DNA of 64,000 bases. It comes from Octopus vulgaris. Taxonomy: Eukaryota. Made by a program: the position numbers and the translations under genes. The stretch spans positions 27,590,001 through 27,654,000 of the forward strand of contig OX597819.1 of NCBI GenBank assembly GCA_951406725.2, written 5' to 3'. The notes under the pieces were generated by a model. It saw only the letters and a list, made by a program, of their open reading frames with translations. It searched no databases and was not told the origin of the DNA. Positions 35,476 through 61,817 of this stretch are shown here, piece after piece (position 1 is the stretch's first letter; every line of letters begins with the position of its first letter).

Positions 35476-35772
35476 TCTTTTACTTGTTTTACTTGTTTCA
35501 GTCATTTTAACCGCAGCCATGCTGGAGCACCCCCATAAAGGGTTTTGTCGAAGAAATCGACACCAGGACTTATTCTTCTGTAAGTCTAGTACTCATTTTT
35601 TCGTTCTCTTTTGCCGAACCGCTAAGTTACGGGGACGTTAACACACCGACACCGTTTATCAAGCGGTTGTGGAGGGACAAATACAGTGACTCATGGAAAT
35701 ATACATACATACATACATACACACATACATACATACATACATACATACACACATACATACATATACACATAC

Positions 35773-36627: not shown

Positions 36628-38352
36628 TTATTGCTTATTCAGCTTGGGTTCGAATTTATCAATAAAATTCTTTTCTCTGATTTTCCTCTCGATTTCACTT
36701 GGGCTGTGTAATTTGTAGAATGGAAATATTATATATATTTTCCGACCACATGTTGCTAGGTGGTTACTCAAAGGTATCTGACGGACCTCTGGGTCTCTAA
36801 TCTGTTGCCGGTGTACACGTGAGCGTTCTAATAGTGCGTTTCCCGTCTGACCTACATATATTTCTTCACAATTTGGGCATTTGATGCAGTAAATTAAATT
36901 TCTGCTTTTGCAGTTCATATTCGCGTTTGTGAATATTTTCCCGGTTTTTGTGTTTATATATTGACCGGTATGTATGAATTGGCATGTGCCACATCGGCTA
37001 TCATTGCATTTAGATACCGTGAATGTTTGGTCTTTGTTGCTGAGGTCAAATTTTGCCTTTGTTAGTAATGTTTTCAAGTTTTTAGGCTGTCTTTTACTAA
37101 GCACCATAGCTCGATCCTTGATTATGTCTTTTAATTCATTACTTTGGGCAATGATTGGAAGGTTTGCTTTGGCAATGTTGAAGATATTCTGGTGACATGG
37201 GTTGTGTGTCACTATGAATGGTATGACTTGTTCTTGTTTTCCTCTTCCTTGGGTTGTCCTAAGTTGTTGTATAGGTATTTTTATAGCCCGCTGTATGCCA
37301 TTTTCTATAAGTAGAGATGGGTATTTTTGTTTGAGCAAAAATTCTCTTAGTTCTATTAGGCGTTTGTTCCTGATATTTGCATCTTCTACAATAGTACAAA
37401 TTCTTCTGGCTAGGCAGTATGGGATGTTACGTTTTGTATGCGGTGGATGGCACGACTTAAAATTTAGGTATTGATGTGTGTCTGTGTGTTTATAGTATAT
37501 ATCTGTGGTGATGGTGGTGTCTTTTTTAATTACCATTATATCCAGGAATGGTAATTTGGTACTACTCATCTCCTTTGTAAATTTGAGAGATGGGTGTAGG
37601 TTGTTCAGGAGGATATTGAACTCTTCCAGAGTATTTAGAGATTCTGTCCAGATTATGAAACAGTCGTCTAGGTATCTCTTCCATGCCTTTTCAATATACT
37701 TTCTAAATCCAGTGCCATAGTTTACCTCCACCTCTTGGTAGAGTTGTTCTTCTAAGTACCCCATTACAGAGTTGGCGTAAACGGGAGCAAACCTCGTTCC
37801 CATCGCCGTGCCTCTAATTTGGATGTAATTCTTTCCATTGAAGAAGAATGTGTTATTTTCTAGAATAAGTTTGACTGTGTCTAATATAAATGGCACTGTG
37901 AATCTGCTGGGAATCACTTCTCTATGTTTTTCTAACCAGTATTTAATCGCCTTTATTCCTAAATCGTGTGGAATATTGGTGTAGAGGCTTACCACATCAA
38001 AACTTAGCAAAACTGAATTTGTTTCTGTTGTTTTGGGAAGATGGGACAGGAAGTCGATGTCATCCCTGATGAAACTTGGTATGTAAGTACATAGTGGTTT
38101 CAAAACAATGTCAATAAAATTGCTTAGACGGTGTGTAGGGCATGCTGGACCAGCTATAATAGGTCTAAGTTTTAGGTCTTTTGGATGTAATAATTTTATG
38201 TACTCACTTTCTTGTTCTTTTACTGCCTGTTGAATGTTTTTTGATTTGTGTATTTTTGGTAAGCCGTAAAAGTTGCTGGGTTTTGGTTCAAAATTGGTGA
38301 TGTAGTCTTTTTCATTATCCGTAAGTGAGTTGTGGTGTGTTGAAATCAGGTT
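36628..38352 (-). CDS. PLE reverse transcriptase plus GIY-YIG endonuclease (5'-truncated, no internal stops)
   Basis: FYGLPKIHK, LRPII, SFDVVSLYTNIP, GTAMGTRFAP, RYLDD, FLD, YYKHT; Cys linker CNDSRCGTC; NLIYCIKCPNC..IYVGQT...H...H. The first ~32 aa of the tracked ORF derive from captured host DNA. Confidence 0.93.
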   Translation of the reverse strand, partial: NLISTHHNSLTDNEKDYITNFEPKPSNFYGLPKIHKSKNIQQAVKEQESEYIKLLHPKDLKLRPIIAGPACPTHRLSNFIDIVLKPLCTYIPSFIRDDIDFLSHLPKTTETNSVLLSFDVVSLYTNIPHDLGIKAIKYWLEKHREVIPSRFTVPFILDTVKLILENNTFFFNGKNYIQIRGTAMGTRFAPVYANSVMGYLEEQLYQEVEVNYGTGFRKYIEKAWKRYLDDCFIIWTESLNTLEEFNILLNNLHPSLKFTKEMSSTKLPFLDIMVIKKDTTITTDIYYKHTDTHQYLNFKSCHPPHTKRNIPYCLARRICTIVEDANIRNKRLIELREFLLKQKYPSLLIENGIQRAIKIPIQQLRTTQGRGKQEQVIPFIVTHNPCHQNIFNIAKANLPIIAQSNELKDIIKDRAMVLSKRQPKNLKTLLTKAKFDLSNKDQTFTVSKCNDSRCGTCQFIHTGQYINTKTGKIFTNANMNCKSRNLIYCIKCPNCEEIYVGQTGNALLERSRVHRQQIRDPEVRQIPLSNHLATCGRKIYIIFPFYKLHSPSEIERKIREKNFIDKFEPKLNKQ

Positions 38353-38514
38353 GTGTGTGTGTGTATGTGTGTGTGTGTATAAACATCTACACGCAGACAA
38401 ATAGACACACACTTGCACAAACGCATATGCTAGCATACGAGTACACATTCACAAACACATATACAAATGCAAGTATATACGCGCACTTAAATACAAATAC
38501 TAATATACATAAAC
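38352..38514. repeat. 163-bp inverted copy of host sequence 40298-40460
   Basis: Reverse-complement match, with position sum 78812 at both ends. Confidence 0.92.
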
Positions 38515-39999
38515 ACCGCATACAAAACGTAACATCCCATACTGCCTAGCCAGAAGAATTTGTACTATTGTAGAAGATGCAAATATCAGGAACAAACGCC
38601 TAATAGAACTAAGAGAATTTTTGCTCAAACAAAAATACCCATCTCTACTTATAGAAAATGGCATACAGCGGGCTATAAAAATACCTATACAACAACTTAG
38701 GACAACCCAAGGAAGAGGAAAACAAGAACAAGTCATACCATTCATAGTGACACACAACCCATGTCACCAGAATATCTTCAACATTGCCAAAGCAAACCTT
38801 CCAATCATTGCCCAAAGTAATGAATTAAAAGACATAATCAAGGATCGAGCTATGGTGCTTAGTAAAAGACAGCCTAAAAACTTGAAAACATTACTAACAA
38901 AGGCAAAATTTGACCTCAGCAACAAAGACCAAACATTCACGGTATCTAAATGCAATGATAGCCGATGTGGCACATGCCAATTCATACATACCGGTCAATA
39001 TATAAACACAAAAACCGGGAAAATATTCACAAACGCGAATATGAACTGCAAAAGCAGAAATTTAATTTACTGCATCAAATGCCCAAATTGTGAAGAAATA
39101 TATGTAGGTCAGACGGGAAACGCACTATTAGAACGCTCACGTGTACACCGGCAACAGATTAGAGACCCAGAGGTCCGTCAGATACCTTTGAGTAACCACC
39201 TAGCAACATGTGGTCGGAAAATATATATAATATTTCCATTCTACAAATTACACAGCCCAAGTGAAATCGAGAGGAAAATCAGAGAAAAGAATTTTATTGA
39301 TAAATTCGAACCCAAGCTGAATAAGCAATAATAATAATACTTAGAGGTATTACTTCCACTGCTACGACCATGACCACTAACAACAACAACAATACTAAAG
39401 GTGATCAAGACGAAGATAGCAGGAAAATTATCTTATTTAGGGTTAAAAGTTCTATTGCCACCACCATCACCACTAGCAACAATAATTAAGGTGCTGACAA
39501 TGATGATGATGACAATTGAAATATAAAAATATAAAAATCTCTGACAAAGGATATTTACAACATTTCTAAAAATAACCCAACGATTGCTGCTTCGGCCAGG
39601 GTCAAGATACAGGACTCTTGACCTGTCCAACAAAGCGTGATGCCTAAACCAATCAGCTCAACCAACCAATCAGCTTAAGTAATTGAGTGATACTACACAC
39701 TGATTGGTCAGAATACAGTTTGCAAAACCTAGCACTCTGGAGCCTACCCAGCTGTATTTATAGCACAGAATCACTCATCTTGCTACAGTCAAAAATTGTG
39801 AAGCATGACTGTCAACACTACTACATGAACTCGAAGATTGCAGAATTCAATGCATGAAAGTACTAGTTCAATCAGAATGAATATTTAACATTCTACTATT
39901 TCATTTTATTTTATTCAATTATAATATATTATCTTATAATATATCATTATAAGATTGTAAATAAAACGTGAAAATCAGACAAGGTTGGAATTCTTTTTA

Positions 40000-59609: not shown

Positions 59610-59870
59610 GTGTGTGTGTGTGTGTGTGTGTGTGTGCATGTTTGTGTTTGACTTTGAGTTTGTGCTTGTTCCTCACCACCGTCTGACAACTGGTGTCGAT
59701 TTGTTGACGTCCCCGTAACTTAGCGATTCGGCAAAAGAGAACGATAGAATAAATACTTGACTAAAAAGAAAAAAAAATACTGGAATTGATTCATTCGGCC
59801 AAAATTCTTCAAGGTGGTGCCCCAGCATGGCCGCAATCCAACGACAGAAACAAAACTTAAAAGATGAAAG
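59262..59870 (+). mobile_element. Old SINE family A copy with an HHR fragment in its (TA)n tract
   Basis: Head at 59262-59410 and tail at 59640-59870. Confidence 0.75.
59487..59521 (-). ncRNA. 35-nt minimal hammerhead, A3-U8 variant
   Basis: atatc|ATGAATA|gc gaaa gc|GAAA|ccgg|T|C|gatat. Confidence 0.65.
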
Positions 59871-60175
59871 ATAATTAAAAATCACATTCTAAGTGGTAAG
59901 AACAAGTCACTATCTCAATGACTGGCTTGTGGCAAAAACAGTCAAGGGAGATAACCCTGAACATTTTCCACAATAGAAATGAATTTAACTTGGAAGACAG
60001 CGGAAGATTGATACTTAGAAATACGGTATCACTCCCGTGCGTGTTTCGTTCTTGTCGTCGTTGTTACAGCTGCTGTTGATGTTGTTGATCAGCCCCAAGG
60101 TGGCTCTGTAAAACAAGTATAACTGTTTACATTATTTACATTCGATGGATATTTGTCCTCATCTTGTTTGTTGTT

Positions 60176-60221
60176 AACACAACGTTTCGGCTGATATACC
60201 CTCCAGGCTTCTTCAGGTGTC
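60176..60221 (-). ncRNA. Hammerhead ribozyme, canonical core
   Basis: gacac|CTGAAGA|a|gcctg gagggtatat cagcc|GAAA|cg|T|T|gtgtt. Confidence 0.75.
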
Positions 60222-60407
60222 TTGGGAAATTTCGAACCTGGGTTCTTATTCCTAAGGTATTTTTTTGATGTTGTTATTATCATTATTATTGTTGTTGTTG
60301 TTGTTGTTGTTGTTCATGTCATTATTTGGAATCGAACTTGGAATCTTGGGCTTAGTAGCCCGCGCTCTTAACCACTACGCCATATGCCCGTGGGCATAAT
60401 AATAATG

Positions 60408-60492
<85 letters not shown>

Positions 60493-60543
60493 CAACATCA
60501 AAAATGCCTTAGGAATGAGAACCCAGGTTCGAAATTTCCCCAA

Positions 60544-60589
60544 GACATCTGAGGAAGGCTGGAGGGTATATCAGCTGAAACGTTGTGTT
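60544..60589 (+). ncRNA. Hammerhead ribozyme, canonical core
   Basis: gacat|CTGAGGA|a|ggctg gagggtatat cagct|GAAA|cg|T|T|gtgtt. Confidence 0.75.
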
Positions 60590-60897
60590 AAAAACAAACA
60601 AGGACAAATATCCATCAAATGTAAATAATGTAAATAATGTACTTAATTCCTCATCTCTTAAATATAGAAAAGTATAACTTTTGTCACCACGCTTTACCTC
60701 TTTTATTTTTGTTTTTGTTATAATGAACCCTCAAACCCCAAAACAACAAAATCTAATGGGTGATTTAAACAATAAATTGTAAACGAAACGAAATTTGACT
60801 GTTATTTCTAGTATGTCGAGCGACCAGATTGAGCAGTGGTTCTCAACAAGGGTTCATATAAGATTCTGTTGTTGATGTTGATGGTTATACTTGTACA

Positions 60898-61268
60898 GTG
60901 GAGTCGCAATGGCCCAGTGGTTAGGGCAGCGGACTCGCGGTTTCGATTCCCAGACCGGGCGTTGAGAGTGTTTATTGAGCGAAAACACCTAAAGCTCCAC
61001 GAGGCTCCGGCAGGGGATGGTGGTGATCCCTGCTGTACTCTTTCACCACAACTTTCTCTCACGCTTACTTCCTGTTTCTGTTGTACCTGTATTTCAAAGG
61101 GGCCGGCCTTGTCACTCTCTGTGTCACGTTGAATATCCCTGAGAACTACGTTAAGGGTACACGTGTCTGTGGAGTGCTCAGCCACTTACACGTTAATTTC
61201 ACGAGCAGGCTGTTCTATTGATCGGATCAACCGGAACCCTCGTCGTCGTAACCGACGGAGTGCTTCCA
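60898..61268 (+). mobile_element. SINE family D (tRNA-derived head)
   Basis: A box tggcccagtggttagggcag, B box ttcgattccc, GC-rich body; single copy in the window. Confidence 0.7.
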
Positions 61269-61817
61269 TCCATTATACTTGTACAAGTTATAAAACATTT
61301 TTACAATATTTTTTATACAATTTCTAATACAATAGGGGACAATAGGGGACATCGAATTGTTGTGAGGGTCCAGTGAAATAAAATAGGAATCAAAGGGACA
61401 TATAGGCAAAATATGGTTGACAACGATTGAGGCTTTCTCATTTATTCGTCCTGTAACCTTGAAGATTAATGTTCGTGATTACAGGGGTGGAAACAGGTAT
61501 AGTTTGGACGCCTTCATAAGAGACCATCATTTAGTGTCCTCAAAAAACGTCGTCGTTGTTGTGGCTGTTATGGCTGTGGTGTTGATAGTGACGTCGATGC
61601 TGCTGCCTGTAGTGGTGATGTTGATGGTATTGCAGGGGAGGGGGGAGTTGTGATGGTAGTGCTATTGGTCGTCGTCTTCGTCATCGTCATCGTCGTCGTA
61701 TTTGTGATGATGTCGTCTTAAGTAGAGAAGCCTGAGGCTCGTCTACTTAAGCAGATTCTCCATAGCATTGACAAGGAGAAAATTCTCATGTCCAATGTTT
61801 CTCCTTATATATATATG

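What the first reader, a model, noticed from the sequence alone, without database searches (positions are those of the whole stretch)
60115..60679. Candidate Pol III-driven, ribozyme-bearing SINE mobilised by Penelope-like machinery
The minus strand reads a tRNA-like head (GGGCATA TGGCGTAGTGG TTAAGAGCGCGGG CTACTAA...GTTCGATTCC; A and B boxes, 60389-60328), then an (AAC/AAT)n linker, then a tail of about 150 bp containing a canonical-core HHR. A second, head-deleted copy points the other way from a fold-back junction tatgccc-gt-gggcata (60383-60398). The whole unit is bounded by a 10-bp TSD, so it inserted as one event. It has no poly-A or LINE-derived tail, and the inverted geometry and HHR are PLE hallmarks. 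Inference: a non-autonomous tRNA-promoter plus hammerhead retroposon that depends on PLE RT/GIY-YIG rather than a LINE, analogous to Schistosoma SMalpha and retrozymes. I cannot verify whether this family has been described.
Basis: partly seen in the sequence, partly recalled or inferred. Interest (0 to 1): 0.85.

Follow-up and report, generated by a model that had tools for sequence, protein, structure and literature searches.

The report
Penelope retrotransposon with tRNA-derived promoter repeat

Summary
In detail: tRNA-like head, (AAC/AAT)n, hammerhead tail, inverted second arm and 10-bp target duplication are all present. It is not a separate SINE. Head, linker and tail together are the terminal repeat (pLTR) of an autonomous Penelope/Poseidon-type element in the same genome. 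The head sits about 35 nt after its RT/GIY-YIG frame, and the 'tail' is the first ~52 codons of that frame, with a minimal dimer-type hammerhead. Estimated copies: ~35,000 tails, ~12,000 heads, ~2,400 with upstream UTR. About two thirds of heads start within ~14 nt of the tRNA-like 5' end, and their alleles match ORF-linked copies. Inverted pairs carry one long and one short 3' end (19 of 21) inside 8-15-bp duplications, the Penelope 'optional tail' signature. Best model: RNA starting at the head, likely by Pol III, is reverse-transcribed from internal sites in its first tail, and two cDNAs at the two nicks join head to head. The coding strand has no fixed TTTT, hinting that Pol III made the mRNA too, but this is weak (P 0.014-0.04, one counter-example). 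No transcript or cleavage evidence; no intact copy seen.

The parts
60115..60124 (+). Left target-site duplication (AAGTATAACT)
60125..60396 (-). Left arm: ORF-less pLTR copy (leader + tRNA-like head + linker + tail) with the SHORT 3' end
60390..60396 (-). Native leader TGCCCAC (end of the parent element's 3' UTR), palindromic with the head start; inferred RNA start at about -6/-7
   Evidence: (loose ends at L184:3249)
60313..60389 (-). tRNA-derived head (closest to tRNA-Arg among 30 sampled genes); A box 60382-60372, B box 60337-60328
   Evidence: not a tRNA gene
60272..60312 (-). (AAC/AAT)n linker, variable in length, frequent target of nested insertions
60125..60271 (-). Left tail = 5' UTR plus decayed first codons of the Penelope ORF (start codon mutated, one-base deletion)
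60176..60221 (-). Minimal type I hammerhead (CUGAAGA-A, helix II, GAAAC-GUU); predicted cut after 60181; C-C mismatch in helix II
   Evidence: sequence; compared with PMC4209133
60397..60494 (+). Right arm (ATA)n linker; the arm is 5'-truncated here and lacks the head
60495..60669 (+). Right tail with the LONG 3' end; ORF start codon at 60515-60517
60544..60589 (+). Minimal type I hammerhead of the right arm; GUU at 60582-60584
60641..60669 (+). Optional ~30-nt Penelope 'tail' between the two inferred RT start sites, present on this arm only
   Evidence: PMC11167929 and PMC8557442
60670..60679 (+). Right target-site duplication

Best explanation
The feature is a single insertion of two ORF-less copies of the terminal repeat of an autonomous Penelope/Poseidon-type retrotransposon whose repeat starts with a tRNA-derived A/B-box segment; that segment likely serves as a Pol III promoter, and the element's own RT/GIY-YIG protein likely made the short copies by starting reverse transcription inside the first tail of the head-initiated RNA. 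Shown: identity with the pLTR, the tail as the start of the ORF, 5' ends piled at the head, long+short pairing, TSDs, and arms that often differ at source alleles. Inferred: (1) transcription starts at about -6 of the head; (2) GIY-YIG cuts both strands 8-15 bp apart; (3) two RTs prime on two RNAs, one at the distal and one at the proximal start site; (4) the cDNAs run to the RNA 5' end or stop early and are joined head to head, helped by the palindromic leader or microhomology; (5) the hammerhead can only work as a dimer and is not needed for making these copies.
For: An RT-motif pattern gave 121 matches and 0 in the control. Of 30 such loci, 19 have a sense head ~1,030 nt downstream and 20 a sense tail. 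In L147, L164, L179 and L188 an upstream tail runs on into the ORF, and the tail peptide matches the N-terminus of an independent PLE protein (12/20, E 1e-5). Exact 21-mer counts: UTR 788, head 4,006, tail 11,666, each ~1/3 exact, a five-fold step within ~55 nt. In 30 positionally sampled heads the script put 17 starts at -10..+2, 3 at -19..-11, 4 further upstream and 6 inside the head; by eye only 3 continue into the UTR. L335, L337 and L339 have a unit starting exactly at GCCCA(C/T) joined to an ORF-internal point, so ORF-bearing RNA was also a template. Long ends run on into the ORF continuation (20-33 of 38 matches at each of six positions). Alleles are equal in head-start and ORF-linked copies (N7 A 5/30 vs 4/24). 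19 of 21 classifiable inverted pairs are long+short, and 15 of 27 pairs have a TSD versus 0.3% of controls. Arms differ at N7 in 4 of 12 pairs and are no more alike than random arms (p 0.22). The geometry matches the in vitro behaviour of Anolis Poseidon (PMC11167929).
Against: No direct evidence of Pol III transcription: the three RNA runs are unstranded, their depth follows the element's 3'-biased copy gradient, and 79-81% of reads run on into unrelated flanks. Of 7 ORF-5'-bearing copies with an upstream head, only 2 start at the head, 2 start inside it and 3 continue into UTR, so upstream-extended or jumped templates are common. The 5' pile-up could also come from RT arrest or snap-back at the palindrome, or from a Pol II start at the same place. 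No intact ORF was seen (longest open frame 569 aa among 128 matches); copies average 4.5-6% from the majority, so the family looks inactive.
Confidence: 0.72

Rival explanations
1. The copies are ordinary 5'-truncated products of a Pol II-transcribed Penelope element. The tRNA-like segment is an old SINE or tRNA fragment fixed in the pLTR, and 5' ends pile up there because RT stalls or snaps back at the palindrome, or because a Pol II promoter starts there.
For: Truncation is frequent along the whole 3' end (tail 11,666 to head 4,006). Fold-back extensions of variable length are common at the head start. PLE pLTRs are reported to hold internal promoters (PMC8557442, PMC6765202 passages). A T4-free ORF occurs in a relative with no tRNA head.
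Against: Starts lie a few bases upstream of the tRNA-like end, where Pol III starts (established knowledge). Both boxes are intact. The whole unit's sense strand lacks fixed TTTT. The drop per base at the head start is roughly 6-15 times that on either side (my arithmetic).
Confidence: 0.17
2. An independent, self-propagating tRNA-headed SINE family parasitises the Penelope protein, and the autonomous copies carry the head only because such a SINE once recombined into the repeat.
For: Short copies outnumber UTR-bearing ones about five to one. Tandem tail arrays exist (L005). Secondary source loci among ~12,000 heads are likely.
Against: The head follows the ORF in 19 of 30 RT-motif loci. No allele difference between classes in the unbiased sample (small sample, three sites). 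Long ends carry ORF-continuation bases. No head with a different shared body was seen in the 16 tail-distant loci I read.
Confidence: 0.09
3. A LINE-mobilised SINE or a chance nesting of a tRNA-SINE and a hammerhead repeat.
For: REL-type LINE fragments sit next to the linker in several loci.
Against: Those fragments interrupt the unit from outside. The tail is the Penelope ORF start, has two internal 3' ends and no A-tail.
Confidence: 0.02

Closest known systems
Penelope/Poseidon EN+ PLEs (Anolis Poseidon, PMC11167929; structure review in PMC8557442; minimal hammerheads in PMC4209133)
   Same: Single RT + C-terminal GIY-YIG frame without the Neptune Zn-finger linker; hammerhead overlapping the ORF start; two internal RT start sites giving an optional ~30-nt tail at one end; inverted 5'-truncated partner; partial tandems.
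   Different: The pLTR starts with a tRNA-derived A/B-box head plus (AAT)n, and most copies that reach the head start there. No paired A and B boxes were seen within 500 nt of 46 related ORFs (several flanks are short or the frame ends early).
Schistosoma SMalpha / Sjalpha hammerhead SINE-like repeats (as described in PMC6765202 and PMC8490949; primary papers not read)
   Same: Pol III-type promoter followed by a type I hammerhead in a short repeat.
   Different: Described as tandem units freed by self-cleavage, with no autonomous partner named in the passages I read. Here copies keep the uncut ribozyme, start at the promoter and are part of an autonomous element.
Metazoan non-LTR retrozymes and non-autonomous PLEs such as MRC1 (PMC7761336; bioRxiv 10.64898/2026.07.22.740005; PMC8557442)
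   Same: Short non-coding units related to PLE pLTRs, with type I hammerheads; a tandem array occurs here too (L005).
   Different: Mostly dispersed or head-to-head rather than tandem; tRNA head; minimal ribozyme; no circular RNA evidence.
TRIMp3 elements Cassandra, Helenus, Ajax (PMC10886601)
   Same: A small-RNA-derived Pol III promoter placed inside a terminal repeat.
   Different: Those are non-autonomous LTR elements, and that paper argues autonomous partners must use Pol II. Here the autonomous, non-LTR-type element itself carries the segment.
Octopus SINEs OK, OR1, OR2 (Ohshima and Okada 1994; only the citation seen, names OK and OR1 recalled)
   Same: tRNA-derived retroposons from what is probably the same animal group.
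   Different: Could not be compared. OR2 is a CORE-SINE according to PMC4758252. This short unit may already be catalogued under one of these names or in Repbase/Dfam.

Membership tests
Penelope/Poseidon PLE | One frame with PLE-type RT (DKG, MGSPLSP, YVDD) and C-terminal GIY-YIG | tested here: met
   the majority of 47 copies has an 838-codon open frame. Pfam gave RVT_1 just under cut-off and no GIY-YIG hit; the nuclease is read from motifs and homologs.
Penelope/Poseidon PLE | No CxxC Zn-finger linker between RT and EN (unlike Neptune/Nematis) | tested here: met
   Read from translations versus Neptune-type frames; no tree with named references was built
Penelope/Poseidon PLE | pLTR with minimal hammerhead, direct or inverted | tested here: met
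Penelope/Poseidon PLE | Optional 30-40-bp tail at one end | tested here: met
   47 long, 40 short, 9 other of 96 tails; 19 of 21 pairs long+short
SINE (tRNA-derived) | tRNA-derived head with A and B boxes at the 5' end of copies | tested here: met
SINE (tRNA-derived) | Transcribed by Pol III | not testable with these tools
   RNA runs unstranded and read-through dominated
SINE (tRNA-derived) | Independent non-autonomous lineage whose head is absent from the autonomous partner | tested here: not met
   Head is part of the partner's repeat; alleles shared
SINE (tRNA-derived) | Fixed LINE-like 3' end with A-rich or repeat tail | tested here: not met
   Two internal ends, no A-tail
Non-LTR retrozyme | Tandem units each with a type I hammerhead | tested here: not met
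   One long array (L005) and one dimer (L006) among 57 non-redundant loci
Non-LTR retrozyme | Self-cleavage and circular RNA | not testable with these tools
   No assay; read joints show no clear circle junction among the rows shown
Minimal type I hammerhead of PLEs | CUGANGA/GAAA core, extra base after position 9, G10.1-C11.1, palindromic 15.2-16.2, short helix I | tested here: met
   Column counts in 73 copies: core bases 67-73 of 73 except N7 (T38/A33) and the CpG-prone or deleted helix III columns (50-62 of 73); criteria from PMC4209133

The most novel reading that the evidence does not exclude
An autonomous, protein-coding retrotransposon that swapped its Pol II promoter for a tRNA-derived Pol III promoter: its ~2.9-kb RT/endonuclease mRNA was a terminator-free Pol III transcript, and internal RT initiation on that same RNA threw off thousands of SINE-like copies, so one element is both the LINE-like and the SINE-like partner.
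Probability: 0.4. Interest if true: 0.85.

Novelty: new variant of a known kind. Interest (0 to 1): 0.62.

Why it matters
It gives a concrete, sequence-level link between a SINE-like repeat and Penelope machinery, a pairing so far proposed mainly from co-occurrence and pLTR similarity. Tens of thousands of natural insertions test the in vitro Penelope model: two start sites, both strands extended, and apparently two RNAs per event. If Pol III also made the coding RNA, it would contradict the stated expectation that autonomous retrotransposons need Pol II (PMC10886601) and raise how an uncapped RNA was translated. For annotation, these repeats will be mislabelled as tRNA-SINEs or tRNA pseudogenes.

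Tried and rejected
Partner search by Pfam GIY-YIG returned mostly Neptune-type families and a further family; none shares the tail, and they end in (TA)n or carry other ribozyme variants. A family accession was not in the library. Earlier scan findings were not available. Rfam and ARAGORN found neither the ribozyme nor a tRNA. Fold-back copying of one cDNA as the general source of the second arm was rejected because arms differ at source alleles. My first UTR-extension count was off by one base and was read by eye only; one search replaced it. N7 looked 50:50 in query-picked loci but is 25:5 in the unbiased set. Run search: no RNA holder listed among indexed runs; raw RNA runs were uninformative on promoter or strand. 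Terminator avoidance is not significant under Markov nulls (expected 2.1-2.7 runs), and the closest relative with context (L257, 48%) is T4-free without a tRNA head. The monomer fold z-score was -1.4, no support for unusual stability. Ten literature searches found no description of a tRNA-headed PLE repeat; three of them returned nothing at all.

Full report
Observation. The window has, on the minus strand, a tRNA-like head (60389 onward; A box 60382-60372, B box 60337-60328), an (AAC/AAT)n linker and a 147-nt tail, and on the plus strand an (ATA)n run plus a 175-nt tail, all between two copies of AAGTATAACT. The head aligns to genuine tRNA genes of this genome far above shuffles (54-60 versus 27+-5; best to tRNA-Arg among 30 sampled, Arg-ACG not sampled) but is not a tRNA. 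The ribozyme has the canonical core, an extra A after it, a 5-bp helix II, a 4-5-bp helix I and only a palindrome where helix III should be. These are the marks of the minimal PLE hammerheads that need dimers (PMC4209133, parts 1-2 of the text read). The genome is 2.8 Gb in 227 contigs; I infer an octopus from size, contig pattern and repeat style, without testing it.

The family. Exact 21-mers count 11,666 tails, 4,006 heads and 788 upstream UTRs. About one copy in three matches exactly (13/39, 13/38, 17/52), giving roughly 35,000, 12,000 and 2,400 copies. Head and tail are linked in 26 of 30 head-picked loci and 23 of 30 positionally sampled ones. In the tail-distant loci I read, the linker runs into unrelated sequence, several times REL-type LINE fragments. 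In 57 non-redundant loci (three duplicates dropped), 96 tails split into 47 long, 40 short and 9 other ends. Of 27 head-to-head pairs, 19 are long+short, 1 long+long, 1 short+short and 6 involve an 'other' end; 19 of 21 has a binomial P of about 1e-4 (my arithmetic). Fifteen of 27 pairs have an 8-15-bp TSD against 0.3% of 702 mismatched flank pairs. An optional 30-40-bp tail at one end and an inverted 5' partner are described PLE features (PMC8557442, passages).

The parent. Several Neptune-type families and one other GIY-YIG family were checked and rejected. A recalled Penelope/Poseidon RT motif gave 121 matches and none in the control. In 30 of these loci, 19 have a sense head about 1,030 nt downstream, just past the ORF stop and a ~35-nt UTR ending in TGCCCAC, and 20 have a sense tail. 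Where an upstream repeat survives, the tail runs straight into the frame: it is the first ~52 codons, and this peptide matches the N-terminus of an independent PLE protein. The majority of 47 copies has an 838-codon open frame, but no natural copy among 128 matches exceeds 569 aa, so the family appears inactive. The layout (ribozyme over the ORF start, RT start sites about 50-60 and 85-95 nt beyond the cut site) parallels Anolis Poseidon, where RT starts internally at two sites, both strands are nicked and extended, and cleavage is not required (PMC11167929, parts 1-2 read).

Where copies start. The five-fold step from UTR to head lies within about 55 nt. Of 30 sampled heads, 17 start at -10..+2, 3 at -19..-11, 4 further up and 6 inside the head by script; by eye only 3 truly continue into the UTR. 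RNA-read depth, which here mostly reflects read-through of genomic copies, triples between L184:3248 and 3261, with loose ends at -7. Three partial tandems have a unit beginning exactly at the leader, joined to a point 232-252 nt into the ORF: RT reached that 5' end and jumped to ORF-bearing RNA. Long ends continue into ORF bases, and head-start and ORF-linked copies share allele frequencies. Against a single start: of 7 ORF-5' copies with an upstream head, 2 start at it, 2 inside it and 3 extend into UTR.

Mechanism. I commit to this (0.72): RNA starts at about -6 of the head, likely by Pol III; the element's protein nicks both strands and primes two RNAs, one at each internal start site; and the cDNAs join head to head. 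Two templates are indicated by N7 discordance in 4 of 12 pairs and no excess similarity within 14 pairs (p 0.22). In the window, the left cDNA began at the proximal site and reached the leader; the right began at the distal site and stopped in the linker. Short fold-back extensions and both orientations of the two-base loop (AC or GT) occur in other copies; self-priming at the palindrome followed by hairpin opening would explain them, but that is conjecture.

Was the coding RNA also Pol III? No fixed TTTT occurs in 763 well-covered codons (expected 2.6 by synonymous shuffling, P 0.040; 3.7 with other PLEs' codon usage, P 0.014), nor in the tail majority. Forty-five of 46 related ORFs have such runs, and two Neptune frames here have 9 each, though two other local frames have only 2. 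Markov nulls are not significant, and the one T4-free relative is the closest one and has no tRNA head. I put this at 0.4.

Literature. Ten searches found no tRNA-headed PLE repeat. Seen as passages: PMC6765202, PMC8490949, PMC7761336, PMC10886601, PMC4758252, PMC13282606 (plus its one held supplement). Seen as part 1 of 5 plus passages: bioRxiv 10.64898/2026.07.22.740005, whose supplements are closed. Verdict: a new variant of a known kind; interest 0.62.

Noticed in passing
window 60898-61272: A different tRNA-headed SINE-like insertion bounded by a 13-bp direct repeat (60885-60897, 61273-61285).
   Followed up: no
window 36637-39322 and flanks to ~35950 and ~40000: Neptune-type Penelope element as an inverted pair, with long open frames and ends in (TA)n.
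   Followed up: partly
L091-L098: Young Neptune-type family with many intact 781-codon frames and a hammerhead core variant (U3-A8) near the 3' end.
   Followed up: partly
L005 (G000:C30:17290170-17293314): One head followed by six or seven tandem tail-only units, a retrozyme-like array, with an inverted short arm and a 14-bp TSD.
   Followed up: partly
L044, L053, L054, L200, L219, L223: REL-endonuclease LINE fragments (Dong/R4-like, label recalled) sit in the (AAT)n linker.
   Followed up: partly
L334-L362: Partial tandems in which a terminal unit is joined to ORF positions about 200-450 nt past the long end, several near 232, suggesting preferred RT jump sites.
   Followed up: partly
L119-L143: Another large, decayed GIY-YIG retroelement family with (CA)n-rich UTR and a different candidate ribozyme core.
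   Followed up: no
window 59640-59870: Fragment of another common short repeat, seen again at ~35560-35680 and in many loci.
   Followed up: no
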